Shown here: piece by piece, positions 5,493-30,281 of the stretch
Layout of the letters: each line of letters begins with the position of its first letter
Numbering within the stretch: the stretch's first letter is position 1
DNA from: a virus
Strand: one strand, 5' to 3'
DNA length: 64,000 bases
Virus record (IMG/VR): IMGVR_UViG_3300045988_174665
The notes under the pieces: generated by a model
Database searches by the model: none
What the model saw: the letters and a program-made list of their open reading frames with translations, nothing else
What the model was told of the DNA's origin: nothing
Made by a program: the position numbers and the translations under genes

Positions 5493-5519
5493 GAAATTTG
5501 ACTTCTTACTCTTTTTTTT
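5487..5519 (+). terminator. rho-independent terminator
   Basis: GAGTAAGAA (5487-5495) / TTCTTACTC (5503-5511) stem followed by T8 (5512-5519). The stop codon 5490-5492 lies inside the stem. Confidence 0.75.
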
Positions 5520-5526
5520 ATATAAT
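5498..5526 (+). promoter_or_regulatory. sigma70-type promoter for the helicase/topoisomerase genes
   Basis: TTGACT (5498-5503, inside the terminator loop), 17-nt spacer, TATAAT (5521-5526). Confidence 0.65.
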
Positions 5527-5559
5527 TATTTATATAAAGAAAGAAAGAAAGGTGATATA

Positions 5560-6624
5560 ATGTCTATTGTTTTAGATGAAACTCAAAAAGAAATTGTAGA
5601 AACAACATCTGATAGAGTTTTAGTAGTTGCGGGTAGTGGCTCTGGAAAAACCAGAGTTGTAACCGAAAGAATTAAATTTTTATTAGATAATAATGTTAAT
5701 CCAAAAGGAATTGTAGCAATTACTTTTACCAATGCAGCGGCTGAAGAAATGAGAGAGCGATTGGGTGAAAAAGCTAAAGATGCCTATATTGGTACTATTC
5801 ATTCCTATGCTAATAAACTATTGATAAAAAATGGTATCAGTACAGCGAAAGCAATAAAAGAAGAAGATTTTGATGGATTTTTTGAACTTATTGAAGATAA
5901 TCCCCAAGTATTGGAACCTGTTGAATATCTATTTGTTGATGAATTTCAAGATATAAATACTGCTCAATATATTTTCCTTATGGATATGATTAATGCGGAT
6001 AATTTTTTCGCCGTTGGTGACGATTATCAAAGTATTTATCAGTGGAGAGGTTCTAAGCCAAAATATTTCTTTAATTTAGCTAAAGACCCTAATTGTACTG
6101 TATATTTTATGAGCAATAATTATAGAACTGGATATAATATTGTTGATTTTGCTTTAGGCTTTTTGGAACCAGTTAAGAATAAAATTCCAAAAAATGTTAA
6201 ATGCTTGAACCCAAATCACGGGAAAGTCATCGAAAGAAAATCCTTAGATTTGAATTATTTATATCTAGCAATTCAAAAAGATAAAGAATATGGGAAGTGG
6301 TTCATTATAACCAGAGCAAACTCTCAAATTGATGAAGTAATGCGTTTCTTAAATAGAAATAAAATACCTTGTGATACTTTTAAAAAGGGAGATTTATCAA
6401 GCGAACAGTTGCAGAGAAAGCTAAAAGAAAATACTGTAAAGGTCTTAACTGCTCACTCTGCAAAAGGTTTAGAAAATGATTATGTTGCGGTTATGGGAAT
6501 TTCTCCTTATTCAGATGCAGAGCGAAGATTAGCCTATGTAGCAGCCACCAGAGCAAAAACTCTTCTAATTTGGCATTATTCTATAAAGGGAAAGAGAAGA
6601 AAATATATGAATAATTGGGAATAA
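5560..6624 (+). CDS. compact UvrD/PcrA-like SF1 helicase
   Basis: Start at MSIVLDE (AAAGGTGA SD). The track's longer ORF spans the terminator and promoter. Motifs: AGSGSGKTRV, ITFTNAAAEEM, VDEFQD, GDDYQSIYQWRG, NYR, TAHSAKGLE, YVAATRAK. Confidence 0.9.
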   Translation: MSIVLDETQKEIVETTSDRVLVVAGSGSGKTRVVTERIKFLLDNNVNPKGIVAITFTNAAAEEMRERLGEKAKDAYIGTIHSYANKLLIKNGISTAKAIKEEDFDGFFELIEDNPQVLEPVEYLFVDEFQDINTAQYIFLMDMINADNFFAVGDDYQSIYQWRGSKPKYFFNLAKDPNCTVYFMSNNYRTGYNIVDFALGFLEPVKNKIPKNVKCLNPNHGKVIERKSLDLNYLYLAIQKDKEYGKWFIITRANSQIDEVMRFLNRNKIPCDTFKKGDLSSEQLQRKLKENTVKVLTAHSAKGLENDYVAVMGISPYSDAERRLAYVAATRAKTLLIWHYSIKGKRRKYMNNWE

Positions 6625-6641
6625 AGGAAAGGTGAAGTATA

Positions 6642-8117
6642 GTGGATATAAAAGATTATGGAATCAATGAAATAGAAACCTTGTCCTTTAAGGACGGAGT
6701 TAGACAAAGAATTGCAATGTATTTGGGTTCAGCGGATATGCAAGGCGTTTATAATGCTATTCAAGAAATTATTTCTAATAGTATTGATGAATATTATATG
6801 GGCTTTGGTAATAAAATAAATATTAGTCTTGGTCCAGACAATATAATTGTGATTACAGATGAGGGTAGAGGAATTCCCTTTGGAATTAAAGAAGACGGCT
6901 CTAATGTCCTTGTTGATATTTTTTCTCGACCTCATACTGGTGGTAAATTTAATGATAAGGTTTATAATAGCGTAGCGGGACTAAATGGTATTGGTGCGAA
7001 AGCAACTTGTCTTTCTTCGTTAAAATTTAATGTAAGCGTTGTTAGGGACGGTCGTCATGCGACAGCTAGTTGGGAAAAGGGAAATCTTATTGACTATAAA
7101 GAAGAAGACTGGACAGATAAGCAACAACACGGTACTTCTATTCAGTTTTCCCCAGACCCAGAAGTTTATAATCTTGAACCAATTAAGATTGATTTTAATG
7201 TTTTATGTGAAAAATGTAAAAATCTTTCTTACTTAACAAAAGGACTTACTTTTGAATTAGAAGATGAAGATAAGAAAGTAGTTTATTGTGCAAAAAGAGG
7301 ACTACTTGATTTAATTAAAGATAATGTTAAAAACCCTATTAATAAAACTCCTGTTTATTTTGAAATGGAAGAAGGAGAAAATAAGGTAGAAATAGCGTTA
7401 CAGTGGACTAAAGATAAAGAAAAAAACTTTACCTTTACTAATGGACTGGAAAATATTGAAGGTGGTACTTCTTTAACAGGAATGAAGACTGCTATTACAA
7501 CCTTTATGAAGAAACAATTTAAAGGCGAATTTAACGGTGATGTGGCTCGAACTGGTCTTGTATATGCCGTTTCTTGTAAAACTCCTAATCCAAGTTTTGC
7601 GAATCAAACGAAAACTAAAATTAATAATCCAGAACTGAGAGGATTAACTCAAAGAGCTACAAATCAAGCCTTATTTGATTTCTCGGTTCGTAGACAGGAA
7701 GAATTCGATAAGGTAATCGACTTTCTTGTAAAAGAAAGAAAAGCAGAAATGGCGGCGGAAAGAGCGAGAAAAAAGTTTCTTGAAGCTGGTAAAGATGTAG
7801 AAAAAAATCAGAAAAGAAAAGTATTTGCTTCTGATAAATTAAAAGATGCTGAATTTTTGGGACAAAATTCAATTTTAACAATTGTAGAAGGAAATTCAGC
7901 TATGGGTGGCTTATCGAGAGCCAGAGATTATACTAAATATGGTCTTTTTGCAATAAGGGGTAAACTTCTTAATTGCTTATCTAACCCAGAAGAAAAAATC
8001 TTTCAAAACGAAGAAATTAAAATTCTTCTGAGTGCATTAAATATAGTGCCGGGAAAGTATGATAGTAAAAAATTAAGATACGGAAAGTTAGCTATCTGTA
8101 CTGATGCGGACTCGGAT
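6642..8117 (+). CDS. type IIA topoisomerase subunit B (GyrB/ParE-like), exon 1
   Basis: GTG start with AAAGGAAAGGTGA. GHKL ATPase boxes present (EIISNSIDE, DEGRGIP, GLNGIGAKA) and TOPRIM VEGNSAMGG. It ends inside the TOPRIM acidic motif (ICTDADSD). The in-frame RK-stop after 8117 is intron sequence. Confidence 0.85.
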
Positions 8118-19645: not shown

Positions 19646-22600
19646 ATGGACTTTAAATTTTGGGGGTCGTTACACAATCACACTGACCTCTCCAATTTAA
19701 GATTAAGAGATTCAATTAATAAAGTTGAATCTCTTATTGATTATGCGTTAGAATTGCATCATGAGGTGTTGGCAATCACCGAACACGAAACTATTGCATC
19801 AGCTATAAAAGCAGAAAAATATTATAAAAAAATTAAAGAGAAAAATCCTAATTTTAAATTAATTTTAGGTAATGAAATTTATCTTTGCCGCAATGGATTA
19901 AATTTATCTAATTATAATTCAAAAAAAGATAAATTTTATCATTTTATTTTATTAGCTAAAGATGAGATTGGTCACGAACAAATTAGAGAAATTAGCACCC
20001 GAGCGTGGAGTCATTCTTTTTCTTATCGAAAAATGACAAGAGTACCAACTTATTATCAAGATATTTTAGAAGTGGTAGGAAGAAACCCCGGACATATTAT
20101 AGCGTCAACAGCGTGTTTAGGAGGTTGTCTGCCAACTCAGCTTTTAAGGTATAGAGAAGGTCAAGAACAAGACTCTGAATTATATTCTAAAATTAAATTA
20201 TGGTGTGTTCAATTAAGAGATTTGTTTGGTTCAGGTAATTTTTTCTTGGAAATGCAGCCTTCTTTTAATAAAGAACAAATTTATGTAAATAATAAAATTA
20301 TAGAGTTATCAGAAGAGCTAAATATTCCTTTTATTATAACAACTGATTCGCACTATTTAAAAAAGGAAGATAGACCAATTCATAAGGCTTTCTTAAATTC
20401 CCAAAATGGCGACCGAGAAGTTGATGCTTTTTATGCCACAACTTATTTAATGAATACGGAAGAAATTTGTTCATATATGCAGGAATATATAGGTATGGAT
20501 AATTTACAAAAAGCTTTTGATAATATTGCTTTTATAAAAGATAGTTGTGTAGATTATTCTTTACAAAAGTCATTAAAAATTCCTCGATTAAGTTGGAAAC
20601 AGCCAAATCAAATTAAAAATGTGGAGAAATGGATTAAATTAATTCCAGAATTAGAACTTTTCTTAAATTCTCCTTATGAAGGAGACAATTATCTTGCAAA
20701 ATTAACTATGAATAAGATAGAAGAAGATGCTACTTTACAAAATACAGAAACTTATAAAGAAATTAATGCTTGTTTTAATGATATTTGGGTATCTTCTGAA
20801 GCAAATAAAGCACGATGGAGTAATTATCTTTTAAACCTTCAAAATATTATTGAAGAATGTTGGAAAGCTGGAAGTTTAGTAGGAGCGGGAAGAGGCTCTG
20901 GAGTTGGTTTTTTATTATTATATATCTTAGGAATCACACAAATCAATCCTTTAAGAGAAAAGACAAAAACTTTTAGATTTCGTTTTCTTAATCCAAAAAG
21001 AGTAAGTCCTCTTGATGTTGATATAGATATTGAAGGTTCTAAAAGAGATAATGTATTAGCCGGCTTTAGAAAAACTTACGGTGATGATAGAGTAGCTAAT
21101 GTAATGACTATTAAAACTGAAAAGTCTAAATCAGCTATCTTAACTGCCGCAAGGGGATTAGGAATAGATGTTGATACTGCTCAATACCTTTCTTCAATGA
21201 TAGAGTCGGACAGAGGACAGTTAAGAACTTTAAAACAAACTTTTTATGGTGATGAGGAAAATGGAATTTCTCCTAATAAAACCTTTCAAAATGAAATGAT
21301 TAATAACTATCCCGAGCTATGGGAAGTAGCTCAATATATAGAAGGGTTATGCTGTGGAGTCGGAGTCCACGCTGGAGGAGTTATTTTTGTAGATGAGCCA
21401 TTTACAAAAACTACGGCATTAATGAGGTCACCAAAAGGAGTTATTATAACGCAACTGGATTTACACGACTCTGAATATGTATCAAATATTAAATATGATG
21501 TTTTATCAATTGAAGCTTTGGATAAAATTCATATTTGTTTAGACTTATTAATGGAATATAATTATCTAATTCCCGAGCCAACCCTAAAAGAAACTTATGA
21601 AAAAGTTATTGGTATTTATAATCTTGAAAGAGAAAATAAAGAAATGTGGGAAATGGTTTGGGAACACGAAATTATGAGCTTATTTCAGATGGAACAACAA
21701 AGTGGTATACAAGGTATAGCTATTTTAAAACCTACCTCAGTCGATGAAATGGCAATTTTAAATTCTACAATTCGTTTGATGGCACAGGAAAAAGGCGGAG
21801 AAATGCCAACTCAAAAACTGGCTCGTTTTAAAAATAATCCTAAAGAATGGGATAGAGAGTTGGCTTATTATGGCTTGGGAGAGAAAGAAAAGGCAATTCT
21901 TGAACCAATAGTTGGGATTTCTTATGGTTTGTGTATTGCTCAGGAACAATTTATGCAGTTGGTACAATTACCAGAATTGGGAGGTTTTTCTTTGGAATTT
22001 GCTGATAGATTAAGAAAATCAATTGCAAAAAAGAATCCCGCAGAATTTGAAAAAGTTACTAATGAATTTTTTACAATTACAAAAGAAAAAAATTGTAATC
22101 CAAAATTGTGTAAATACGTATGGAATGTATTAATTTGTATGAGCCGAGGTTATGGTTTTAACCAGTCACACACTTTAGCTTATTCTTTAATTGGTTTACA
22201 AGAAATGAATTTAGCTTTTCATTATCCTTTAATTTTTTGGGATTGTGCTTGTTTAATTGCCGACGCTGGTGGAGACGAAAATGATTTTGAAGAAGAAGAG
22301 GAAGAAAGTGAGGAAGAAGAAAATTATAATAATTGTATAGAAGAATTTGGAGAGGAAGAATTAGAAGAAGAAAATGAAGAAGAAAGTAATAGTAAGACTT
22401 CTAAAAAGAAAGCTAAAAAAACCAACTTTGGAAAAATAGCTATTGCCATTGGAAAAATGAGGGAAGCTGATGTAACAGTAACCCCTCCAGATATAAATTA
22501 TTCAACTTACACTTTCTCACCAGATGTAAAAAATAGTTTAATTCGTTATGGATTAAGTGGAATTACTAGAATTGGCACTGATTTAATTAAGAAAATAATT

Positions 22601-23638
22601 AATTGTCGCCCCTATTCATCTGTAAAAGATTTTATTGAGAAAATTAATCCCACTAAGCCGCAAATGGTTAATTTAATTAAATCTGGAGCTTTTGATAGTT
22701 TCGGAGATAGACAAAAAATTATGTCTGATTATATTAAAAGTATTTGTGGTGAAAAGACTCGTTTAACTTTACAGAATATGAATATGTTAATTAATTTTAA
22801 TTTAATTCCAGAAGAATTAATGTTTGAAAAAAGAGTTTATTGCTTTAATAAATATTTAAAAAATTATAAAGAAGGAATATACTTTTTAATTGATACAATA
22901 GCTTATAATTTCTATTCTGAATATTTTGATGTAGATTTATTAATTCCATTAGAAGATTCTGAGTTTAGTTTTAAAATTTCTCAAAAGGAATGGGATAACA
23001 TTTATCAAAAGAAAATGAATCCAGTTCGAAGGTGGCTTAAAGAAAATAAGGAAATAATTTTAACCAAAATGAATCAACGGCTATATGATGATATGTATAA
23101 AAAATATGGTGCTGGCTCAGTTAGTAAATGGGAAATGGACTCCTGTTCATTTTATTCACATAAGCACGAGTTAGCTGATGTAAAAAAACAAATCTATGGT
23201 TTTGAAAATTTCTTTAGTTTATCTGAGCAACCCGATGTAGATAAGGAAATTGTTATTAAGGGTAAAGAAGTCACATTGTATAATCTTCATCGTATTATTG
23301 GTACTGTTTTAGATAGAAATAAAAATAAGAAAACGGTAACTTTATTAACCACTGATGGAGTAGTTACAGTTAAAATTTTTGGACAAGTCTTTACACAATA
23401 TGATAAACAAGTATCTATAAAAGATGCTACTACTGGTAAGAAAAAGGTAATAGAAAAATCTTGGTTTACCAGAGGTAATAAAATTATTGTAACTGGTATT
23501 CGCAGAGAAGATAATTTTATTGCAAAAAAATATTCTAAAACCCCTTATCATATTGTAGAATTAATTAAAGATATTAATGAAGATGGTACAATAGAAATAC
23601 AGAAAGAGCGTTTTGAAATAGAAGAAGGAGGTGATTAA
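19646..23638 (+). CDS. dnaE: DNA polymerase III alpha subunit (DnaE-type)
   Basis: N-terminal PHP motif LHNHTDLSNL, GRGSGVGFLLLYILGIT, DVDIDIE, GVHAGGV. 1330 aa. Contains an acidic low-complexity insert at about 22270-22420. Confidence 0.92.
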   Translation: MDFKFWGSLHNHTDLSNLRLRDSINKVESLIDYALELHHEVLAITEHETIASAIKAEKYYKKIKEKNPNFKLILGNEIYLCRNGLNLSNYNSKKDKFYHFILLAKDEIGHEQIREISTRAWSHSFSYRKMTRVPTYYQDILEVVGRNPGHIIASTACLGGCLPTQLLRYREGQEQDSELYSKIKLWCVQLRDLFGSGNFFLEMQPSFNKEQIYVNNKIIELSEELNIPFIITTDSHYLKKEDRPIHKAFLNSQNGDREVDAFYATTYLMNTEEICSYMQEYIGMDNLQKAFDNIAFIKDSCVDYSLQKSLKIPRLSWKQPNQIKNVEKWIKLIPELELFLNSPYEGDNYLAKLTMNKIEEDATLQNTETYKEINACFNDIWVSSEANKARWSNYLLNLQNIIEECWKAGSLVGAGRGSGVGFLLLYILGITQINPLREKTKTFRFRFLNPKRVSPLDVDIDIEGSKRDNVLAGFRKTYGDDRVANVMTIKTEKSKSAILTAARGLGIDVDTAQYLSSMIESDRGQLRTLKQTFYGDEENGISPNKTFQNEMINNYPELWEVAQYIEGLCCGVGVHAGGVIFVDEPFTKTTALMRSPKGVIITQLDLHDSEYVSNIKYDVLSIEALDKIHICLDLLMEYNYLIPEPTLKETYEKVIGIYNLERENKEMWEMVWEHEIMSLFQMEQQSGIQGIAILKPTSVDEMAILNSTIRLMAQEKGGEMPTQKLARFKNNPKEWDRELAYYGLGEKEKAILEPIVGISYGLCIAQEQFMQLVQLPELGGFSLEFADRLRKSIAKKNPAEFEKVTNEFFTITKEKNCNPKLCKYVWNVLICMSRGYGFNQSHTLAYSLIGLQEMNLAFHYPLIFWDCACLIADAGGDENDFEEEEEESEEEENYNNCIEEFGEEELEEENEEESNSKTSKKKAKKTNFGKIAIAIGKMREADVTVTPPDINYSTYTFSPDVKNSLIRYGLSGITRIGTDLIKKIINCRPYSSVKDFIEKINPTKPQMVNLIKSGAFDSFGDRQKIMSDYIKSICGEKTRLTLQNMNMLINFNLIPEELMFEKRVYCFNKYLKNYKEGIYFLIDTIAYNFYSEYFDVDLLIPLEDSEFSFKISQKEWDNIYQKKMNPVRRWLKENKEIILTKMNQRLYDDMYKKYGAGSVSKWEMDSCSFYSHKHELADVKKQIYGFENFFSLSEQPDVDKEIVIKGKEVTLYNLHRIIGTVLDRNKNKKTVTLLTTDGVVTVKIFGQVFTQYDKQVSIKDATTGKKKVIEKSWFTRGNKIIVTGIRREDNFIAKKYSKTPYHIVELIKDINEDGTIEIQKERFEIEEGGD

Positions 23639-24791
23639 TATATCTATTGGTATGTTTGATAAAGATTTAAAAACTTTTAAAAATTCACCATTTAATTTGG
23701 AATTAATGAAACTTTCAACTTATTTTAAAGATAGGGGAGAAATTGTTACTTTAGTACCAACTTTCTCTCCAGAAAAACACCAAAAATTTTATTATTGGCA
23801 AGACTACTTTACAGATAATATTACAGAAAAAATTACTCAACCAAATGTTACCATCGGCGGCAGAGCGTTTACTAATGATGTATATAAACCATTAAAAGAA
23901 GAAGTTGAAAGACAAAAGCCTGATGTATTTTTATATTCTAAAATGAACAAAAGGTACTATGATACTAAGGTTGCGACTGAAGGTTTTAGGCTAATGACGA
24001 ATGCAGTTCATCTAAGATTGTCATTAGATGAAAAAAAGGTTTGGGAAGATTTTTATTGCCAAGTGTCTAAAAAAGGTGCTCTTACAATTTTTCTACACGA
24101 TAAAAACTTAAATGATATAGAAGGAGCTAAAGAAGCTGTTGATTTTCTTTTTAAAAAAAATCAAAGAAAAAACACCGCTTTAGCAACAAAATATCCTATT
24201 ATAGTAAATAATTATAAAGACTTAGAAAAATGGTTAAGCATAAGGTCTTCTCTTAATTATTATACAATAATTTATCAAGGAATTATGAAAGATACAGAAT
24301 TGATTGACTTAATGAAAAAACCTTCTCGGCTTATTAATAAAGTGCAATATAATGTAGGGTATGGATGTTCCGATGAGAATCTCTTTTTAAAGAGAGATTT
24401 ACCAAAAATTTTTAGACAAGTAATTTTTTTAAAGAAAAGAGGGCATAAAATTTTACTTTATTGTGAGGAAGAAAAATTTAAAGAAAAAAGGATTCCTCGT
24501 TTAATCCAGTTTTTTAACGCATATTTAAAAAGCTTAGATTATAGGAAGATGCTGAATCCTGAACTTGCTTGTAAATATGATACAATGTATAGTTTTGCCG
24601 ATGCTGTTTTACCTTTTCCTCCCGATTTACGAAAAATGTTTAACAAACAAGAGGTTAGATTTTTATTTAATTTTATTAGAGAAGTTAATCCAGAATTGTT
24701 TGTTGATTTATACGAATGTCGTAATGTTTATTTAAAAGGAGATGAATTTGTTACAGATGTTGAGTACAACAGAAATCAAGAGAAAAATTGA
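23631..24791 (+). CDS. hypothetical protein
   Basis: 386-aa ORF. Start is ambiguous (GTG 23631 or ATG 23652). No catalytic motif recognised. Confidence 0.55.
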   Translation: MINISIGMFDKDLKTFKNSPFNLELMKLSTYFKDRGEIVTLVPTFSPEKHQKFYYWQDYFTDNITEKITQPNVTIGGRAFTNDVYKPLKEEVERQKPDVFLYSKMNKRYYDTKVATEGFRLMTNAVHLRLSLDEKKVWEDFYCQVSKKGALTIFLHDKNLNDIEGAKEAVDFLFKKNQRKNTALATKYPIIVNNYKDLEKWLSIRSSLNYYTIIYQGIMKDTELIDLMKKPSRLINKVQYNVGYGCSDENLFLKRDLPKIFRQVIFLKKRGHKILLYCEEEKFKEKRIPRLIQFFNAYLKSLDYRKMLNPELACKYDTMYSFADAVLPFPPDLRKMFNKQEVRFLFNFIREVNPELFVDLYECRNVYLKGDEFVTDVEYNRNQEKN

Positions 24792-24957
24792 TGAAAATAA
24801 TAAAGTAATACAAGAAATCACCTCTTCTAATCTTTTTGTTTTAAATAATACAGTGGCAAAATTATTAGCAGAAAATCAAGAACTACAAAAGCAATGTCCC
24901 CATCATTTTACCAATGGATATTGTGATTATTGTTATAAGGAGTGTGATAACAATTAA
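24742..24957 (+). CDS. small coiled-coil protein with Cys/His-rich C-terminus
   Basis: Ends with CPHHFTNGYCDYCYKEC. Start could be ATG 24742, TTG 24748 or ATG 24757. Confidence 0.5.
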   Translation: MNLLQMLSTTEIKRKIDENNKVIQEITSSNLFVLNNTVAKLLAENQELQKQCPHHFTNGYCDYCYKECDNN

Positions 24958-25168
24958 TAAGATTATTTTATATACAACCCACTGCCCAAGGTGTGAAGTT
25001 TTAGAAAAGAAATTACAAGAAAAAGGAGTTATTTATGAGATTTCAGAAGATACACAATTTTTAATTGATAATGGCTTTTCTGAAGTACCTATCTTAAAAG
25101 TTGATGATGAATATTTAACTTTTTTAACCGCAGTTGGTTGGTTAAATTCAATTGAGGTGAAAAAATGA
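24944..25168 (+). CDS. nrdH: NrdH/glutaredoxin-like redoxin
   Basis: KIILYTTHCPRCEVLEKKL...VPILKVDDEY is a thioredoxin-fold CxxC redoxin. Start is uncertain: ATG 24914 has no SD, GTG 24944 is 1 nt from AAGGAG, and ATT 24953 has ideal 10-nt spacing. Confidence 0.75.
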   Translation: MITINKIILYTTHCPRCEVLEKKLQEKGVIYEISEDTQFLIDNGFSEVPILKVDDEYLTFLTAVGWLNSIEVKK

Positions 25169-27078
25169 ATATAAATATTAGATTAAATAAAAACTTTACA
25201 ACTCAATTTAATAAATTACTAACTGAATATGGTGAAGAATTTGCTAAGCTGAATGGACTTTCTGATACTTATTTAAATTATACCGATTTTATTGATAATT
25301 TTATTGATAAGGACACGGTTGCCGATGCTTCTATTGATGGTAATGCAAATGTAGGTCATAAAGATATTGTAACTTTACTAAATGAGATGCCAAAGCCGCA
25401 CCGTAAATTGTTAGCTTTAAATAAAATTTATTATGAAATGAATAAAAAATATGGCTTTAAGGAAGCTAATAAATGGCTAACTTTGGAATGGACAAGAGCG
25501 TTATATATGCACGATGCAGATACAAGCACCTTTAAAAGCTATTGTTTTGCATATGACCTCAAAGACTTAGCTGAAAAAGGCTTATTCTTTTTAGAGGGAT
25601 TTAATAGCTCTCCACCAAGACATTTGGGAACTTTTGTTGATTTTATAAAAGAGTATGTTAGCTTTGCCACAAATCGCTCTTCTGGTGCAGTTGGTATGCC
25701 AAATCTTATTCCATATCTATATTATTTCTGGGATAGAGATGTCAAGAATGGTTATTATACTGAAACTCCAGAAAGATATGCTAAACAACATATTCAAAGA
25801 CTTATTTATGGTTTAAATCAACCCTGTACTAGAGATGGCTTACAAAGTGCTTTTACAAACACTTCTATTTTTGACCATCCCTACTTAGAGGCTCTTTTTG
25901 GTGGGGCAATTTTTCCTGACGGAAAATTTATGATTGATGAGATTGAAGGTATTATGAATTTCCAATGGATGTTTTTAGAAGAAATGAGCAACATTCGTAG
26001 TCAGAATATGTTTACTTTCCCCGTTAATACAATTTCTCTTTTGAGAAAAGAAGGTAAGTTTATTGATGAGGATTTTGCAAAGAAAGCTATTAAACATAAT
26101 ATGAAATGGTCAGACAGTAATATTTTTGCCGATAGCTCCGTCAATAGTTTAGCTAATTGTTGTCGTTTAAAATCTAACATTGAAGATTTGGGATTTTTTA
26201 ATAGTATTGGTGGCACGGCATTAAAAGTGGGTTCTGTAAAGGTATCTACAATTAATCTTGCCCGAATTGCATTAGAAACTACAAATGAAAAAGATTTCTT
26301 AAAACTTCTACAAGAAAGGATTAAGGTTAATCTTGAAGCTCTTGATTGCGTACGTCATATAATTGAAAGAGACATTGAAAAAGGACTTTTACCGAATTAT
26401 ACAAAAGGTTTAGTTGACCTTAAAAACCAATATAATACAATTGGAGTTATTGGAATTTATGAAACTATGAAAACTTTTGGCTATGTTTATCAAGATGAGT
26501 TGGATAATTCTTTTTATAAAGATGAAGCTTATAATTTTGGTAGAAAAATTTTCAAAGTGATTCATAACACTAAAGATAATTTTATCTTAGATAAAGATTA
26601 TATGGTAAATGTTGAAGCTATACCTGCAGAACAAGCTGCAGTAAAAATGCAAAAAGCAGATGAACTATTATTTCCCAATAAAGTTGTAAAAGACTTGCCA
26701 CTTTATGGTAATCAATTTATACCTTTAGGAATTAAAACAACATTGCAGGAAAGAATTAAAATCGCCGCAGCTTTTGACAATTTTTGTAACGGTGGCTCGA
26801 TTCTGCACGTAAATTTAGAAGGACCTTTTAGTAATTTTGAGCAAGCTTGGGATATGTTAAATTATATAACTAATCAAGGAGTTACATATTTTGCTTTTAA
26901 TACTAAAATTCAAGCTTGTAAATATAATCACGCTTTCTATGGAAAGACTTGTCCAATTTGTGGAAATCCAGTAGAAAATGAATACACACGAATCGTAGGA
27001 TTTTACACTCCCGTAAGAACCTATTCAAAAGAAAGAAAAGAGGAATTTAAAATGAGAGAGTGGGAGAAAGTTAATTAA
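25165..27078 (+). CDS. nrdD: anaerobic (class III) ribonucleoside-triphosphate reductase
   Basis: Size and layout match. C-terminal Zn site (CKYNH...CPICG) is followed by the glycyl-radical motif TRIVGFYTPV. Confidence 0.88.
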   Translation: MNINIRLNKNFTTQFNKLLTEYGEEFAKLNGLSDTYLNYTDFIDNFIDKDTVADASIDGNANVGHKDIVTLLNEMPKPHRKLLALNKIYYEMNKKYGFKEANKWLTLEWTRALYMHDADTSTFKSYCFAYDLKDLAEKGLFFLEGFNSSPPRHLGTFVDFIKEYVSFATNRSSGAVGMPNLIPYLYYFWDRDVKNGYYTETPERYAKQHIQRLIYGLNQPCTRDGLQSAFTNTSIFDHPYLEALFGGAIFPDGKFMIDEIEGIMNFQWMFLEEMSNIRSQNMFTFPVNTISLLRKEGKFIDEDFAKKAIKHNMKWSDSNIFADSSVNSLANCCRLKSNIEDLGFFNSIGGTALKVGSVKVSTINLARIALETTNEKDFLKLLQERIKVNLEALDCVRHIIERDIEKGLLPNYTKGLVDLKNQYNTIGVIGIYETMKTFGYVYQDELDNSFYKDEAYNFGRKIFKVIHNTKDNFILDKDYMVNVEAIPAEQAAVKMQKADELLFPNKVVKDLPLYGNQFIPLGIKTTLQERIKIAAAFDNFCNGGSILHVNLEGPFSNFEQAWDMLNYITNQGVTYFAFNTKIQACKYNHAFYGKTCPICGNPVENEYTRIVGFYTPVRTYSKERKEEFKMREWEKVN

Positions 27079-27284
27079 TGATAGATAAGAATTTGTTAGT
27101 AAATGCCAAAAAAGCTAAAGATTTTATCAATAAAATTCCCTGTAGTGACGATACTAATATCTCTTTAATTTATTTAATTCAAGGTCTTTTTCCCAAAGCA
27201 GAACAAAAACTTAAAGAGAACCTTGAAAAAAAGTATATTAGTGGATATATTGATGGAAGGAAGGATGCTTTAAATGGTAATTAA
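27078..27284 (+). CDS. hypothetical protein
   Basis: 68-aa ORF coupled to the nrdD stop (TAATG). No motif recognised. Confidence 0.5.
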   Translation: MIDKNLLVNAKKAKDFINKIPCSDDTNISLIYLIQGLFPKAEQKLKENLEKKYISGYIDGRKDALNGN

Positions 27285-27747
27285 AGGATTAGTAGAAACA
27301 GATTTTTGTAATTATAAAAAAGCTTCTATGTTTATAATCTTTCCTAAATGCAACTGGAAATGCGAAAAAGAGTGTGGGAGAGCTATTTGTCAAAACAGCT
27401 CTCTTGCACGCAGTCAGGAGTATGAAGTTCCAATAGAGACTATTGTACAAAAGTATTTAAACAATCCAATTACAAAAGCAATAGTTTGTGGCGGTCTTGA
27501 ACCTTTTGATAGTTATGAAAGTTTAATACAACTTACTAAAAGACTTCGAGAAAAAACAGAAGATGATATAGTAATTTATACTGGTTACAAAGAAGAGGAA
27601 ATTTTCCCTCAAATTCAACAGATAATTAAATATAAGAATATTATAATAAAGTTTGGTAGATTTTTACCAGACCAAAAAAAGCATTATGATGAGATTTTAG
27701 GCGTAAATTTAGCAAGTAAAAATCAATATGCAAAGAGGTACGAATGA
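27274..27747 (+). CDS. nrdG: class III RNR activating protein-like (radical SAM)
   Basis: Cys cluster FPKCNWKCEKECGRAICQN near the N-terminus (CX3CX3C rather than the canonical CX3CX2C) and a GGLEP motif. Position next to nrdD supports the call. Confidence 0.65.
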   Translation: MVIKGLVETDFCNYKKASMFIIFPKCNWKCEKECGRAICQNSSLARSQEYEVPIETIVQKYLNNPITKAIVCGGLEPFDSYESLIQLTKRLREKTEDDIVIYTGYKEEEIFPQIQQIIKYKNIIIKFGRFLPDQKKHYDEILGVNLASKNQYAKRYE

Positions 27748-27935
27748 TAAAAATAATTTTAAATCCCGATTTGGAGAGAGTTAAGGAAATTAAAAACAAA
27801 ATAAAAGAAAAAGGTGGATATTGCCCCTGTAAGCTTTTTAAAAATGATGATACAAAATGTATGTGTAAAGAGTTTAGGGAACAAAAAGAGGGAGAATGCC
27901 ATTGCGGGCTTTATATTAAAATATCAGAGGTGTGA
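27744..27935 (+). CDS. ferredoxin:thioredoxin-reductase catalytic-subunit-like small Cys protein
   Basis: 63 aa with CPC-x9-CMC-x10-CHC (GGYCPCKLF...KCMCKEF...ECHCGLY). This resembles the CPC...CPC...CHC signature of FTR/FDR. Confidence 0.55.
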   Translation: MIKIILNPDLERVKEIKNKIKEKGGYCPCKLFKNDDTKCMCKEFREQKEGECHCGLYIKISEV

Positions 27936-27936
27936 T

Positions 27937-28560
27937 ATGGTAGTTAGTAATGTAAAAGTGTATGATTTGGAAGAATCTTTAATAGCTAGTGGATATCCAA
28001 TGAGAGTTAAGTTAGAAGAAAAAAAAGTTAGTGAAAAAGATTTATGTAGAGCAAAAAGTTTAATCAAAGCTTCAGAAAAAGATAACCAAGCACATATTCA
28101 ATTTTTAACCGGTATAAGAGTTAATTTTGATTTAACTTTTTCTACTAAAGCTTGGGTTGAAGCTGAACGATATCGTTTTTTAGAATTTGTTAGCTCTCAA
28201 AGTACAATGCATTGCCTTCCTAAGTTTGAGCTTTCTAATCAATATAATAAGTATGTTGACCCAAGAATTATAAATGTTATGGAAGAAAAAATTAATTTTT
28301 ATAATCATACTATAGAGTTAAGAAAAACCTCTAAAGACCCAAAGGTCATTGATAACTTAAATAAAATTTTAAAAGAATTATATTTAGAGTTATTGTATTC
28401 TAACCCCTGTGGCTTTACTTATACTGCCCGAATGACCACAAATTATCGTTGTTTAAGAAACATTTATAAGCAAAGAAAAAATCATAGACTGCCGGAATGG
28501 AAGAAATTTTGTCGATGGATAGAAACTCTTCCCTACGCAGAGGAATTTTTAATAAATTAA
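27937..28560 (+). CDS. divergent ThyX-like protein
   Basis: Start at MVVSNVK (GAGGTG SD). AWVEAERYRFLEFVSSQSTMH aligns to the ThyX RHRxxSxxxxSxRY motif but is degenerate. NPCGFTYTARMTTNYRCLRNIYKQRKNHRLPEW aligns to LP...T.N.R.L..F..LR....AQ.E. Confidence 0.45.
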   Translation: MVVSNVKVYDLEESLIASGYPMRVKLEEKKVSEKDLCRAKSLIKASEKDNQAHIQFLTGIRVNFDLTFSTKAWVEAERYRFLEFVSSQSTMHCLPKFELSNQYNKYVDPRIINVMEEKINFYNHTIELRKTSKDPKVIDNLNKILKELYLELLYSNPCGFTYTARMTTNYRCLRNIYKQRKNHRLPEWKKFCRWIETLPYAEEFLIN

Positions 28561-28570
28561 AGGAGTAAAA

Positions 28571-29521
28571 ATGAGTAAGATAATTGATTTTCCAAAGGAA
28601 ACCGAAAAAGAAGTAAAAGAAAATAAAAAGAAAAAGCCCATATTACAAGATACTATGGATTCAATTGGTCAATTTGTAAATTTAGATGGTACAGATGAAT
28701 TTGTGAAATTATTGTCATTGCCAGATAGGGAATTTCTTCCCTTCTCAAAATTGGTACTTTCCGAATTTGAAGCTGGTTTAAGAGATGCAAATAGTAGATT
28801 AGAGATTACCAAAGCTTTAAATAGTAAAGGATTAAATGCAAGTAACTTAGGGGAATTAGCCTCAAAAACTTGTGAAGCTATTGATACTCAGTTATCAGAA
28901 ATTTTTTCTGTAGTAAAAAGAGATTTTTTAAAGCAATTAATAATGCTTTCGGCAGATGCGGTTATTTCTACTTCTGGAATAGCAACAGAAATTCTTGCTA
29001 TTCCTTTTGAAAAAGATAAAGAAGCTCTTACGCCAGATTATGCTAATGTTGGTGATGCAGGTATGGATATTTATGCTTTAGAAGATATAGATATTGAACC
29101 CGGTGAAACAAAATTAGTTAAAACTGGTATTAAAATAGCTGTACCTTTAGGTTATGAAATCCAAGTAAGACCAAAAAGTGGTATTAGTTTAAACTCTAAA
29201 ATGAGAATTGGTAATGCCCCTGGCACCATTGATAGCCAATATCGTGGAGAAGTGGGAATTATTGTTGATAACATTGACCCACCAATTAAAGATATAACTT
29301 ATGATTTCGATGAAAAACATCGACCAATTATAACTTCTATATTGCACGGCTCACCAATACATATAGCAAAAGGGACAAAAGTTGCACAACTGGTTATTAG
29401 TAAAGTAGTATCTGCTCACTTGTATCCAGTTAATAAAATTGAAGAAATTGAAGGAAATCGTGGTGGTGGCTTTGGTTCTTCTGGATTAACAAAAAAGGTG
29501 AAAGATAATGTCAAAGATTAA
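28571..29521 (+). CDS. dut: dUTPase with a ~150-aa N-terminal extension
   Basis: All five trimeric dUTPase motifs lie in the C-terminal half: GDAGMDIYA, RPKSG, GTIDSQYRGEVG, KVAQLV, RGGGGFGSSG. Confidence 0.9.
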   Translation: MSKIIDFPKETEKEVKENKKKKPILQDTMDSIGQFVNLDGTDEFVKLLSLPDREFLPFSKLVLSEFEAGLRDANSRLEITKALNSKGLNASNLGELASKTCEAIDTQLSEIFSVVKRDFLKQLIMLSADAVISTSGIATEILAIPFEKDKEALTPDYANVGDAGMDIYALEDIDIEPGETKLVKTGIKIAVPLGYEIQVRPKSGISLNSKMRIGNAPGTIDSQYRGEVGIIVDNIDPPIKDITYDFDEKHRPIITSILHGSPIHIAKGTKVAQLVISKVVSAHLYPVNKIEEIEGNRGGGFGSSGLTKKVKDNVKD

Positions 29522-30248: not shown

Positions 30249-30252
30249 AAAA

Positions 30253-30272
30253 AAGAGGGCTTTCGCCCTCTT
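30253..30272. terminator. bidirectional terminator between the convergent arms
   Basis: AAGAGGGC / GCCCTCTT stem with TTTC loop, flanked by A8 upstream and a T-rich stretch downstream. Confidence 0.8.
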
Positions 30273-30281
30273 CTTAATTAA

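What the first reader, a model, noticed from the sequence alone, without database searches (positions are those of the whole stretch)
24914..27935. Phage-borne class III RNR module with an NrdH-like redoxin and an FTR/FDR-like iron-sulfur disulfide reductase
Four genes lie in one co-oriented block: a CPRC redoxin (24944..25168), NrdD (glycyl-radical motif TRIVGFY), an NrdG-like activase, and a 63-aa protein with CPC-x9-CMC-x10-CHC. The last pattern resembles the catalytic subunit of ferredoxin:thioredoxin reductase. Well-studied class III RNRs (E. coli, T4) use formate as reductant. A second type uses a thiol redoxin, and for the Methanosarcina barkeri enzyme the electrons are delivered by an NrdH-like protein reduced by an FTR-like ferredoxin:disulfide reductase. 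This gene set looks like that complete electron chain packaged in a phage. That would make dNTP synthesis depend on host ferredoxin rather than formate. The NrdG-like protein also has CX3CX3C rather than the canonical CX3CX2C.
Basis: partly seen in the sequence, partly recalled or inferred. Interest (0 to 1): 0.7.

Follow-up and report, generated by a model that had tools for sequence, protein, structure and literature searches.

The report
Phage anaerobic RNR with mini-FTR reductase
This phage carries an oxygen-sensitive ribonucleotide reductase next to its own small thiol redoxin and a 63-residue iron-sulfur "mini" ferredoxin:thioredoxin-reductase homologue; the same four-gene module recurs in hundreds of gut phages, which suggests (untested) that these phages draw electrons for DNA-precursor synthesis from host ferredoxin rather than from formate.

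Summary

- **The 63-aa protein is a true FTR/FDR homologue.** It passes Pfam PF02943 (26.2 bits against a cut-off of 22). All six Cys and the His align to the FTR catalytic residues. Its AlphaFold model (pLDDT 96) best matches the Methanosarcina acetivorans ferredoxin:disulfide reductase (Foldseek probability 0.98).
- **NrdD is the thiol type.** It matches Thermotoga maritima NrdD (9e-144) and has Cys127, the Cys332-Cys333 "CCR" pair and Glu484. It lacks the formate-type Met-x-Cys.
- **The module is common.** The order redoxin–NrdD–NrdG–mini-FTR holds in 73–78 of the 80 best IMG/VR contigs (366 encode the protein). Clostridium botulinum phage c-st has the same four genes. All 97 distinct linked NrdDs carry the Cys pair.
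- **A cellular subtype exists.** A Clostridia version of the mini-FTR often sits directly beside a thioredoxin gene.

Three corrections apply. The NrdD is NrdD2/NrdDh, not the methanogen NrdD3. The redoxin fails the NrdH model. The conserved NrdG motif is CX3C-X(4–10)-CQN, not CX3CX3C. The electron chain itself remains an untested inference. I rate it a new variant of a known kind.

The parts
24944..25168 (+). Small glutaredoxin-fold redoxin (about 71-74 aa) with CPRC active site and a cis-Pro 'VP' motif. It is the proposed direct reductant of NrdD. The start codon is uncertain (GTG 24944 or ATT 24953; the ATG at 24914 is unlikely).
   Evidence: PHROG 22 'thioredoxin domain' E=8.7e-6. A family profile hits Grx 7C10 at 1.4e-8, MtH895 (1ILO) at 1.8e-8 and NrdH (1R7H) at 1.6e-7. 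Pfam Glutaredoxin is hit by 33 of 36 members. C11, C14 and P46 are invariant. A homologue lies upstream of NrdD in 73 of 80 viral loci. Ribosome-binding site and start context.
25165..27078 (+). NrdD, the class III (glycyl-radical) ribonucleoside-triphosphate reductase, of the thiol-dependent NrdD2/NrdDh type. Key residues: Tyr126-Cys127, Cys332-Cys333 (NCCR), SIGG at 347-350, Glu484, Zn site C585/H589/C596/C599, and Gly612 in TRIVGFY.
   Evidence: Pfam NRDD 2.2e-93. NCBIfam NF006127 553.3 bits against a cut-off of 545. T. maritima NrdD (4COI/4U3E) 9e-144 over residues 4-631. Motif table over 97 homologues.
27078..27284 (+). 68-aa ORF between NrdD and NrdG, function unknown. Its membership of the module is doubtful.
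   Evidence: No Pfam, NCBIfam or PHROG hit. Found only in the near-identical contig L088 and weakly in L150. It overlaps both neighbouring genes.
27274..27747 (+). NrdG-like radical-SAM activase (157 aa) with a non-canonical cluster motif, C26-x3-C30-x8-C39-Q-N.
   Evidence: Pfam Fer4_12 6.9e-10, 39.8 bits against 22. TIGR02491 NrdG 4.8e-10, but 39.6 bits against a cut-off of 126. PHROG 626, anaerobic RNR small subunit, 2.9e-10. hhalign of the family against E. coli NrdG aligns residues 69-153, E=3.4e-5, probability 72%. Cys conservation.
27744..27935 (+). Mini-FTR: a 63-aa homologue of the catalytic core of ferredoxin:thioredoxin reductase / ferredoxin:disulfide reductase. C27, C39, C41 and C52 are the predicted [4Fe-4S] ligands. 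C29 and C54 are the predicted redox-active disulfide. H53 corresponds to FTR His86.
   Evidence: Pfam PF02943 8.3e-6, 26.2 bits against 22. Alignments to 4TPU and to Synechocystis FTRc (2PU9) place all six Cys and the His in register. Profile hits. AlphaFold2 pLDDT 96.2. Foldseek top hits 4TPU (probability 0.98, TMq 0.60) and 7PWE (0.94). Invariant residues.

Best explanation
The block is a self-contained anaerobic dNTP-synthesis module.

Proposed steps:
- NrdG uses S-adenosylmethionine and a [4Fe-4S] cluster to install the glycyl radical on NrdD Gly612.
- NrdD reduces NTPs to dNTPs and in each turnover oxidises an active-site cysteine pair, Cys127 with Cys332 or Cys333.
- The small CPRC redoxin re-reduces that disulfide by thiol-disulfide exchange.
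- The 63-aa mini-FTR re-reduces the redoxin. It would hold a [4Fe-4S] cluster on C27, C39, C41 and C52 next to a C29-C54 disulfide. It would take two single electrons from a low-potential host carrier, most likely clostridial ferredoxin, and pass them on as a dithiol, as FTR and archaeal FDR do.

Net effect: phage DNA-precursor supply is tied to the host ferredoxin pool rather than to formate or to NADPH/thioredoxin reductase.

Shown here: the identity and homology of each part, the thiol-type NrdD active site, and the conserved linkage of the four genes. Inferred: cluster binding, ferredoxin as the donor, and the order redoxin to NrdD.
For: 1. Mini-FTR homology. Pfam FeThRed_B is above the gathering score. 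Every catalytic Cys and His86 of FTR is in register and invariant in 86 sequences. Similarity to FDR extends into the N-terminal 'LNPD.E..KE' helix. The best fold matches are the two solved FDRs.
2. NrdD type. It is 9e-144 to T. maritima NrdD, with the bottom Cys, the CC pair and the Glu. Mutating either Cys of the SCCR motif inactivates the T. maritima and N. bacilliformis enzymes, and the N. bacilliformis enzyme uses thioredoxin (PMC4493059).
3. Linkage. Redoxin, NrdD, NrdG and mini-FTR lie in the same order in 73, 77 and 78 of the 80 best IMG/VR loci. In 46 of 80 GTDB loci an NrdD lies upstream of the mini-FTR. Phage c-st has the same four genes in a different order, Grx-NrdG-NrdD-FTR.
4. 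Specificity. All 97 distinct linked NrdDs carry YC, CCR and the Glu, including lineages only 23-30% identical (SMCCRL, ASCCRL, SSCCRL). None has the formate-type motif.
5. Independent hint of the reductase role. A cellular subtype of the mini-FTR in Clostridia is directly followed by a thioredoxin gene in 10 loci and directly preceded by one in an eleventh, out of the 34 GTDB loci that lack NrdD. A natural Grx/FDR fusion has been crystallised (7PWE).
6. Precedent. The M. barkeri class III RNR receives electrons through FDR and NrdH (Wei et al. 2015, known to me by title and my recollection of its abstract, cited in PMC5704485).
7. The junctions are translationally coupled.
8. No CX2CX2CX3C ferredoxin is encoded in the window, so the donor must come from the host.
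Against: - No activity, cluster-binding or interaction data exist for any member of this family.
- At 63 aa the protein is about half the length of any characterised FTR catalytic subunit or FDR domain. It has no variable subunit or rubredoxin domain, so ferredoxin docking and stability are unproven.
- Foldseek E-values are modest (0.03-0.17), and single-sequence PDB hits are weak (E 0.09-0.5).
- Seven of the 80 viral loci show no detectable redoxin, so it may be dispensable or replaced by a host protein.
- The apparent redoxin-NrdD fusion in L018 was an artefact of my script. A TAA stop separates the two genes.
- The electron donor could be flavodoxin or another carrier.
Confidence: 0.6

Rival explanations
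1. The mini-FTR is a disulfide reductase but does not work through the phage redoxin. It would reduce NrdD's cysteine pair directly or recycle a host thioredoxin, while the phage redoxin is kept reduced by host thioredoxin reductase and NADPH.
For: Seven of 80 viral loci lack a detectable redoxin while keeping NrdD, NrdG and mini-FTR. The cellular subtype pairs with a classical thioredoxin rather than this Grx-like protein. The N. bacilliformis NrdD2 works with Trx/TrxR/NADPH (PMC4493059).
Against: The redoxin is present in 73 of 80 viral loci, always immediately upstream of NrdD, and is translationally coupled to it in the window. Characterised FTR and FDR enzymes act on small thioredoxin-fold proteins, not on large enzymes (established knowledge of the family). 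E. coli Trx did not support T. maritima NrdD (PMC4493059).
Confidence: 0.17
2. The mini-FTR serves the activation step rather than turnover. It would act as a small Fe-S electron carrier or thiol-maintenance factor for NrdG, for example by reducing or protecting its unusual CX3C-Xn-C cluster, or by keeping NrdD's Zn-site or loop cysteines reduced before glycyl-radical formation.
For: The gene immediately follows NrdG and overlaps its stop codon, and in most loci it starts within a few bases of the NrdG end. The NrdG family has a non-canonical cluster motif with a variable insert. Thioredoxin has been reported to stimulate E. coli class III RNR activation (PMC4390871).
Against: In c-st the order is NrdG-NrdD-FTR, so adjacency to NrdG is not fixed. 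Strict retention of the C29/C54 disulfide pair and His53 points to dithiol-disulfide chemistry, not simple electron carriage. The FTR-type cluster is not a normal low-potential one-electron carrier (established knowledge of FTR). The cellular subtype pairs with thioredoxin where no NrdG is nearby.
Confidence: 0.1
3. The 63-aa protein is a degenerate, non-catalytic relic of FTR, for example a Zn- or Fe-binding structural or regulatory subunit of the RNR complex, and the phage NrdD uses host reductants.
For: It has half the length of characterised homologues and no partner subunit. PHROGs lists its family (38239) as unknown function. Sequence-level PDB E-values are weak.
Against: Every catalytic residue of FTR is invariant across 86 sequences at only 55% mean column identity. 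The family spans at least 1447 50%-identity clusters in phages and cells. The fold is predicted confidently and matches FDR. Such strict retention of the disulfide pair and the His is not expected for a merely structural metal site.
Confidence: 0.08

Closest known systems
Methanosarcina barkeri class III RNR system: NrdD3, NrdG, NrdH and ferredoxin:disulfide reductase (Wei et al. 2015, Biochemistry 54:7019; the paper is not held in the library, and I cite it from its title as listed in PMC5704485/PMC9176816 and from my own recollection of the abstract)
   Same: A glycyl-radical RNR is recycled by a small thioredoxin-fold protein encoded in the RNR operon. That protein is in turn reduced by an FTR-family [4Fe-4S] disulfide reductase fed by ferredoxin. 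The overall logic is the same.
   Different: The NrdD here is the Thermotoga/Neisseria NrdD2 (NrdDh) type (9e-144 to T. maritima NrdD), not the methanogen NrdD3. The reductase is 63 aa with CHC and no rubredoxin domain, against 169-173 residues in the crystallised M. acetivorans FDR (4TPU), where its CHC aligns to C-Y-C. The reductase gene lies inside the RNR operon. The carrier is a phage of Bacillota.
Ferredoxin:thioredoxin reductase catalytic subunit (FTRc, Pfam PF02943; Synechocystis 1DJ7/2PU9)
   Same: All six Cys and His86 are in register. C27, C39, C41 and C52 correspond to the cluster ligands Cys55, 74, 76 and 85. C29 and C54 correspond to the disulfide Cys57-Cys87. The CHC motif is the same as in plant and cyanobacterial FTR.
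   Different: It is about half the length. The spacing is CPC-x9-CMC-x10-CHC rather than CPC-x16-CPC-x8-CHC. The second motif is CMC, not CPC. There is no variable subunit. The context is nucleotide metabolism, not photosynthetic regulation.
Ferredoxin:disulfide reductases with solved structures: M. acetivorans FDR (4TPU) and the Desulfotalea psychrophila Grx/FDR fusion (7PWE)
   Same: These are the best sequence-profile and fold matches. The N-terminal 'LNPD' helix is shared. 7PWE shows an FDR domain physically joined to a glutaredoxin, the same pairing proposed here in trans.
   Different: Both are multidomain proteins of 170-196 aa, with C-Y-C aligned to this protein's CHC. Neither is associated with an RNR gene in any result I obtained.
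Thermotoga maritima NrdD/NrdG (NrdDh1; PMC4493059) and Neisseria bacilliformis NrdD2 with thioredoxin (Wei et al. 2014)
   Same: Same NrdD architecture: no ATP cone, Tyr-Cys bottom motif, (S/N)CCR, SIGG, Glu, and the CxxxHx6CxxC Zn site. Reduction depends on a thiol or protein reductant, not formate.
   Different: The physiological reductant of T. maritima NrdD is unidentified (a protein larger than 10 kDa; E. coli Trx fails). The N. bacilliformis enzyme uses NADPH/TrxR/Trx. Here a dedicated redoxin and an Fe-S reductase are encoded alongside. The window NrdD has Phe where NrdDh1 has Tyr227, so it is not NrdDh1 in the strict sense.
Clostridium botulinum phages c-st and D-1873 (CST074-CST077)
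   Same: The same four genes (glutaredoxin, NrdG, NrdD and a 63-aa FTR-like protein), followed by dUTPase. The mini-FTR is 63% identical and the NrdD 41% identical to the window's.
   Different: The gene order is Grx-NrdG-NrdD-FTR. The NrdD is 978 aa and matches in two pieces, so it carries an insertion. The FTR-like gene is annotated only as a hypothetical protein 'weakly similar' to FTR, and I found no functional interpretation.

Membership tests
FTR catalytic subunit / FDR (Pfam PF02943 FeThRed_B) | Matches the family HMM above the curated gathering score | tested here: met
   26.2 bits against a cut-off of 22, E=8.3e-6, residues 16-59 against profile positions 35-87 of 106. Most homologues carry a precomputed PF02943 hit.
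FTR catalytic subunit / FDR (Pfam PF02943 FeThRed_B) | Six cysteines in three C-x-C motifs (four cluster ligands and a redox-active pair), with His between the last two as in FTR | tested here: met
   C27/C29, C39/C41 and C52-H53-C54 align to Cys55/57, 74/76 and 85-His86-87 of Synechocystis FTRc (chain numbering offset of 7). They are invariant in 86 sequences.
FTR catalytic subunit / FDR (Pfam PF02943 FeThRed_B) | Fold of the catalytic core resembles solved FTRc/FDR structures | tested here: met
   AlphaFold2 pLDDT 96.2, pTM 0.78. Foldseek top hits are 4TPU (probability 0.98, TMq 0.60, 30% identity) and 7PWE (0.94). The next hits have probability 0.06 or less. E-values are modest (0.03-0.17) because the query is short.
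FTR catalytic subunit / FDR (Pfam PF02943 FeThRed_B) | Full-size catalytic subunit (about 107-117 aa in the PDB chains) with a variable subunit (FTR), or an added rubredoxin or Grx domain (FDR) | tested here: not met
   The protein is 63 aa and covers about half of the Pfam profile. No variable-subunit or rubredoxin gene lies in the block. Long family members are not Trx, Grx or NrdG fusions. It is therefore a truncated 'mini' variant.
FTR catalytic subunit / FDR (Pfam PF02943 FeThRed_B) | Binds a [4Fe-4S] cluster and reduces a thioredoxin-fold disulfide with ferredoxin | not testable with these tools
   This needs protein chemistry. Indirect support: the cellular subtype sits beside a thioredoxin gene.
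Thiol-dependent class III RNR (NrdD2 of Wei et al. / NrdDh of RNRdb) | NrdD family membership with a C-terminal glycyl-radical motif | tested here: met
   Pfam NRDD 2.2e-93. NF006127 553.3 bits against 545. RIVGF with Gly612 aligns to T. maritima Gly621.
Thiol-dependent class III RNR (NrdD2 of Wei et al. / NrdDh of RNRdb) | Adjacent Cys pair in the (S/M)CCR motif, the conserved bottom-face Cys, and a conserved Glu (T. maritima C329/C330, C125, E495) | tested here: met
   N-C332-C333-R, Y126-C127 and E484. The first residue of the motif is Asn, not Ser or Met, here and in most phage relatives.
Thiol-dependent class III RNR (NrdD2 of Wei et al. / NrdDh of RNRdb) | Hydrophobic finger-loop tip (SIGG) and the CxxxHx6CxxC Zn site typical of the T. 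maritima group | tested here: met
   NSIGGT at 346-351 and C585-x3-H589-x6-C596-x2-C599. The NrdDh1-specific Tyr227 is Phe here, so strict NrdDh1 membership is not met.
Formate-dependent class III RNR (NrdD1; E. coli, T4) | Met two residues before the thiyl Cys (MGCR in T4) and the CxxCx14CxxC Zn site | tested here: not met
   The motif is NCCR and the Zn site is CxxxHx6CxxC. The T4 NrdD match is only E=3.3e-5 over the C-terminal part.
Methanogen class III RNR (NrdD3) | Phylogenetic placement with methanogen NrdDs and their distinct active-site residues | not tested
The very strong match to T. maritima NrdD makes NrdD3 membership unlikely.
NrdH-redoxin (TIGR02194) | Matches the NrdH model; C-(V/M)-Q-C active site and the WSGFRP motif (motifs from my own knowledge of the family) | tested here: not met
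   TIGR02194 scores 16.8 bits against a cut-off of 85.75. The active site is CP(K/R)C in 34 of 42 homologues, and no WSGFRP motif appears in the alignment. It is Grx-fold: Pfam Glutaredoxin is hit by 33 of 36 members. Solved Grx, MtH895 and NrdH match at 1e-8 to 1e-7.
NrdG (class III RNR activase, radical SAM) | Matches the NrdG model, with the CX3CX2C cluster motif | tested here: inconclusive
   Fer4_12 is above its cut-off (39.8 against 22), but TIGR02491 scores 39.6 against 126. hhalign to E. coli NrdG covers only residues 69-153 (E=3.4e-5). The cluster motif is CX3C-X(4/8/9/10)-CQN, so the canonical spacing is not met. Its position next to NrdD in 78 of 80 loci supports the role.

The most novel reading that the evidence does not exclude
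The roughly 60-aa 'mini-FTR' would be a self-sufficient [4Fe-4S] ferredoxin:disulfide reductase, about half the size of the FTR and FDR chains in the PDB. It would come in two subtypes. One is a cellular form in gut Clostridia, paired with thioredoxin, which would be an unrecognised ferredoxin-to-thioredoxin route in these anaerobes. The other is a phage form recruited, with a dedicated Grx-like redoxin, as the physiological reductant system of NrdDh/NrdD2 class III RNRs. That would answer the open question of what reduces Thermotoga-type NrdDs. It would also show that hundreds of gut phages tie their dNTP supply to the host ferredoxin pool.
Probability: 0.45. Interest if true: 0.75.

Novelty: new variant of a known kind. 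Interest (0 to 1): 0.6.

Why it matters
- **An open biochemical question becomes testable.** The physiological reductant of Thermotoga-type (NrdDh) class III RNRs is unresolved. PMC4493059 showed only that it is a protein larger than 10 kDa and that E. coli thioredoxin does not work. This conserved four-gene module names two concrete candidates, 63 and about 70 residues long, that could be expressed and tried.
- **A minimal enzyme scaffold.** If the mini-FTR is active, it is a minimal scaffold for [4Fe-4S]-plus-disulfide chemistry.
- **Host physiology.** It would add a ferredoxin-linked thiol-reduction route to gut Clostridia.
- **Phage biology.** It would be an auxiliary metabolic module that couples DNA-precursor synthesis to fermentative ferredoxin rather than to formate or NADPH. 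It is widespread: 366 IMG/VR contigs and at least 573 loci in species-representative genomes.
- **Annotation.** It would correct a gap, since PHROG 38239 is currently labelled 'unknown function'.

Tried and rejected
1. **Redoxin-NrdD fusion in L018.** My script reported one ORF. Reading the DNA showed a TAA at 3519-3521 and a separate ATG at 3537 in the same frame. I rejected it as an artefact and do not use it.
2. **Informative domain fusions.** I scanned ten long hits from the exhaustive search against Pfam. None had a Trx, Grx or NrdG domain. One was a DUF1653 fusion, and the rest look like gene-call extensions.
3. **Near-identical DNA in isolated phages.** None was found. Only protein-level relatives appear (c-st, D-1873 and three uncultured records).
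4. **Literature.** I found no paper combining ferredoxin-thioredoxin reductase, phage and anaerobic ribonucleotide reductase. Searches for PF02943/FeThRed_B in a microbial context and for the six-term RNR/phage/ferredoxin query also gave nothing relevant. The two key Wei et al. papers are not held, so what they say about gene neighbourhoods could not be checked.
5. **A phage-encoded ferredoxin.** No CX2CX2CX3C motif occurs in any frame of the window.
6. **Promoter and terminator scan.** Promoter-like sites are at the chance level (47 against 40.4±5.5). The only useful feature is a strong hairpin at 30250-30275.
7. **PDB sequence searches for NrdG and for ORF 27937..28560.** Only spurious weak hits appeared.
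8. **Aligning the NrdG cluster region to E. coli NrdG.** hhalign covered only the C-terminal half, so the equivalence of C39 to the canonical third Cys rests on conservation alone.

Full report
**1. What is in the sequence**

The window is a tailed-phage genome segment of about 30% G+C. A rightward replication and nucleotide-metabolism arm encodes gyrase-like subunits, a DnaB-like helicase, RecJ and a 1330-aa PolC-like polymerase. A leftward structural arm includes a 2883-aa tape-measure protein. A near-identical 72,261-bp IMG/VR contig exists (L088; proteins 95-99% identical).

Between 24944 and 27935 on the + strand lie five ORFs:
- a small CPRC redoxin;
- NrdD (25165..27078, 637 aa);
- an NrdG-like protein (27274..27747, 157 aa);
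- a 63-aa protein (27744..27935).

The junctions are ATGA, TAATG, an 11-nt overlap and ATGA, so the genes are almost certainly co-translated from one transcript. Downstream come an unknown 207-aa gene (27937..28560, PHROG 6721), a 316-aa dUTPase and a RuvC-like resolvase. A strong hairpin at 30250-30275 closes the arm. Promoter-like matches are at chance level and say nothing.

**2. The 63-aa protein is a truncated FTR/FDR homologue**

- It matches Pfam FeThRed_B above the curated threshold (26.2 against 22 bits, E=8.3e-6).
- Pairwise alignments to Synechocystis FTRc place C27/C29, C39/C41 and C52-H53-C54 on Cys55/57, Cys74/76 and Cys85-His86-Cys87. From established FTR structural work, these are the four [4Fe-4S] ligands (55, 74, 76, 85), the redox-active disulfide (57-87) and the catalytic His.
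- Its best PDB hit is 4TPU, the M. acetivorans ferredoxin:disulfide reductase. There the similarity also covers the N-terminal 'LNPD-E--KE' helix.
- A 22-sequence family profile hits 4TPU (E=0.0027) and 7PWE, a Desulfotalea glutaredoxin/FDR fusion (E=0.0034). Nothing else hits credibly.
- An AlphaFold2 model built from 86 homologues has mean pLDDT 96.2. Foldseek against the PDB returns the same two proteins (probabilities 0.98 and 0.94, TMq 0.60, 30-31% identity). Every other hit has probability 0.06 or less.
- In 86 sequences with 55% mean column identity, C27, P28, C29, C39, C41, F44, G50, C52, H53, C54 and G55 are invariant.

It is therefore a real member of the FTR/FDR superfamily, cut down to the cluster-and-disulfide core. 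It covers about half of the Pfam profile and has no variable subunit or rubredoxin domain. PHROGs holds the family (38239) as 'unknown function'.

**3. NrdD is the thiol type**

The protein scores above the NCBIfam equivalog cut-off for NF006127. It aligns end to end with T. maritima NrdD (E=9e-144).

It carries Tyr126-Cys127 (T. maritima Tyr124-Cys125), N-Cys332-Cys333-R (T. maritima S-C329-C330-R), the SIGG finger-loop sequence, Glu484 (T. maritima Glu495), the CxxxHx6CxxC zinc site and the RIVGF glycyl-radical motif with Gly612. The formate-type signature (MGCR in T4; Met382-x-Cys384 in E. coli) is absent.

According to PMC4493059:
- both cysteines of the SCCR motif are essential in the T. 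maritima and N. bacilliformis enzymes;
- the N. bacilliformis enzyme uses thioredoxin;
- the T. maritima enzyme needs an unidentified protein larger than 10 kDa from cell extract, and E. coli thioredoxin cannot replace it;
- the authors' NrdDh1 group contained two Clostridium phage sequences.

The window enzyme has Phe where NrdDh1 has Tyr227.

**4. The redoxin**

Alone, the window protein gives only sub-threshold hits: Thioredoxin_3 and Glutaredoxin at E about 0.01, NrdH at 16.8 bits against 85.75, and PHROG 22 'thioredoxin domain' at 8.7e-6.

Forty-one homologues taken from related loci align cleanly. They show an invariant C-x-x-C (CPKC in 30 of 42 sequences) and an invariant Pro in a 'VP(V/I)L' motif, the cis-Pro position of the thioredoxin fold. 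The family profile matches:
- a clostridial glutaredoxin (7C10, 1.4e-8);
- Methanobacterium MtH895 (1ILO, 1.8e-8);
- Corynebacterium NrdH (1R7H, 1.6e-7).

Thirty-three of 36 members hit Pfam Glutaredoxin. It is a minimal Grx-fold redoxin. It is NrdH-like in its proposed role but not a member of the NrdH family.

Its start codon is uncertain. The AAGGAG ribosome-binding site at 24937-24942 is too close to GTG 24944. An ATT at 24953 gives the spacing and the N-terminus seen in homologues.

**5. NrdG**

Pfam Fer4_12 is above threshold, and the NrdG and PHROG activase models are hit at about 1e-10. The family profile aligns to E. coli NrdG over residues 69-153 (E=3.4e-5).

In 99 distinct homologues C26, C30 and C39 are 99-100% conserved and C34 only 19%. 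The family motif is C-x3-C-x(4, 8, 9 or 10)-C-Q-N. This is a departure from the canonical CX3CX2C, with a variable insert before the third ligand. It is worth a separate look but does not bear on the reductant question.

**6. Linkage: the strongest new evidence**

- The mini-FTR family is large. It has 1381 90%-identity clusters, and 1447 50%-identity clusters at E<=1e-3, of which 619 are at E<=1e-10.
- IMG/VR holds 366 contigs that encode it. Of the best 80, 77 have an NrdD homologue, 78 an NrdG and 73 the redoxin, always in the order redoxin-NrdD-NrdG-mini-FTR. A dUTPase homologue is also present in 57.
- In species-representative genomes at least 573 loci encode it. Of the best 80, 46 show the same module. 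In the two related prophage sets whose genes were read, an integrase lies a few genes downstream of the module.
- Clostridium botulinum phage c-st carries glutaredoxin-NrdG-NrdD-FTR-like-dUTPase (CST074-078). The four genes are the same but the order differs, so the association is not mere inherited synteny.
- All 97 distinct linked NrdDs have the bottom Cys, the CCR pair and the Glu. This includes three divergent lineages only 23-30% identical to the window's (SMCCRL, ASCCRL, SSCCRL). The mini-FTR thus tracks the thiol-type active site across NrdD lineages.

**7. A cellular counterpart**

Thirty-four of the 80 GTDB loci lack NrdD. About 22 of these carry a distinct subtype, with a 4-residue insert ('REQIADPDFEG(F/Y)CHCMLYYK'), in housekeeping surroundings. 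In 11 of them a thioredoxin gene lies immediately beside it, directly downstream in 10 and directly upstream in one. The thioredoxin in L062 was verified with Pfam Thioredoxin at 9.5e-30.

This is independent contextual support that the family's business is reducing thioredoxin-fold proteins. It also suggests that phages recruited a host-type gene.

**8. Mechanism proposed**

- NrdG installs the glycyl radical on NrdD.
- NrdD turnover oxidises Cys127 with Cys332 or Cys333.
- The CPRC redoxin reduces that disulfide.
- The mini-FTR reduces the redoxin, using two one-electron inputs from a host low-potential carrier. By analogy with FTR, this would go through a cluster-stabilised one-electron intermediate and a C29-redoxin heterodisulfide.

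No ferredoxin motif is encoded in the window, so the donor is presumed to come from the host. Clostridial hosts are rich in ferredoxin (general knowledge).

The shown steps are homology, active-site type and linkage. Everything about electron flow is inferred. I put 0.6 on the full chain, about 0.17 on a variant in which the mini-FTR bypasses the phage redoxin, about 0.1 on a role in activation, and about 0.08 on a non-catalytic relic.

**9. Comparison and novelty**

The logic matches the M. barkeri NrdD3/NrdH/FDR system. I know that system from the paper's title, as cited in PMC5704485 and PMC9176816, and from my own recollection of its abstract. The paper itself was not available.

The differences are these:
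- a different NrdD subtype (NrdD2/NrdDh);
- a Grx-fold redoxin outside the NrdH family;
- a reductase about half the size of the solved FTR and FDR chains, with FTR-like CHC where the two solved FDRs align C-Y-C;
- the reductase encoded inside the RNR operon;
- a phage carrier.

The genes have been visible since the 2005 c-st annotation ('weakly similar to ferredoxin-thioredoxin reductase'), and automatic pipelines name some members FTR. I found no paper that interprets the module. The library lacks most subscription journals, so a prior mention cannot be excluded. I rate it a new variant of a known kind, with interest 0.6. It is not categorically new, but it is widespread, coherent and gives a directly testable answer to the open question of the NrdDh reductant.

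**10. Caveat on my own work**

An apparent redoxin-NrdD fusion in L018 was produced by my ORF-extension script reading through a stop codon. The DNA shows two separate genes. That evidence is withdrawn.

Noticed in passing
window 27349..27393 (NrdG residues 26-41): The NrdG family linked to these NrdDs has a non-canonical radical-SAM cluster motif, C-x3-C-x(4/8/9/10)-C-Q-N. C26, C30 and C39 are 99-100% conserved in 99 sequences. The 'CX3CX3C' third Cys (C34) is conserved in only 19%. The insert before the third ligand varies in length between sublineages.
   Followed up: partly
L062 6001-6505, also L063, L071, L073, L074, L079, L081-L083, L085, L087: A cellular (non-phage) subtype of the mini-FTR in Clostridia genomes has a 4-residue insert (REQIADPDFEGFCHCMLYYK). 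It lies directly beside a classical thioredoxin gene (upstream of it in 10 loci, downstream of it in L087). In L062 a rubrerythrin gene is nearby. This may be an uncharacterised ferredoxin:thioredoxin reductase of gut anaerobes.
   Followed up: partly
window 27078..27284: A 68-aa ORF is wedged between NrdD and NrdG and overlaps both. It has no family hit. It is present only in the near-identical contig L088 and weakly in L150, so it is lineage-specific and of unknown function.
   Followed up: partly
window 24937..24962: The redoxin start is ambiguous. A strong AAGGAG ribosome-binding site lies 1 nt before GTG 24944 and 10 nt before ATT 24953. Homologues start at the position of the ATT, which suggests a non-canonical ATT start codon.
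   Followed up: partly
L002 4480-7517; L001 (c-st) 4996-7932; L005 8211-9275: The NrdD genes of relatives are often interrupted or flanked by mobile elements. A GIY-YIG gene splits NrdD into two pieces in L002. The c-st NrdD is 978 aa and matches in two pieces, so it carries an intein-like or other insertion. An HNH gene follows the mini-FTR in L005-L007.
   Followed up: no
L100, L103, L107, L119, L120, L122, L123, L127, L142, L024, L033, L042, L021, L022: The same redoxin-NrdD-NrdG-mini-FTR module occurs with NrdDs only 23-30% identical to the window's (motifs SMCCRL, ASCCRL, SSCCRL, with different Zn-site spacing). The reductant genes have therefore been combined with several NrdDh lineages.
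   Followed up: partly
window 27937..28560: A 207-aa gene immediately after the mini-FTR (PHROG 6721, unknown function; no Pfam or PDB sequence hit). It recurs near the module in 7 of 80 viral loci and sits where other relatives have nucleotide-metabolism genes such as ThyX, kinases and NT5C.
   Followed up: partly
window 28571..29521: The dUTPase is 316 aa. The dUTPase domain occupies only residues 149-314 or so, leaving an N-terminal extension of about 150 aa with no family hit.
   Followed up: no
window 23631..24957: Two ORFs lie upstream of the redoxin. One is 386 aa with a weak hit to a PHROG 'radical SAM domain protein' (E=2.2e-5, N-terminal 109 residues only). The other is 71 aa and ends in a Cys-rich tail (CPHHFTNGYCDYCYKEC). 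Both are conserved only in L088 and L150.
   Followed up: no
window 19646..23638: The PolC-like polymerase (1330 aa, with an N-terminal PHP-like region) contains a highly acidic Glu-rich insert (…DFEEEEEESEEEENYNN…EELEEENEEESN…).
   Followed up: no
window 30250..30275: A strong terminator-like hairpin (11-bp stem, 5 G-C pairs, T-run on the minus strand) lies exactly at the convergence of the rightward replication arm and the leftward genes.
   Followed up: no
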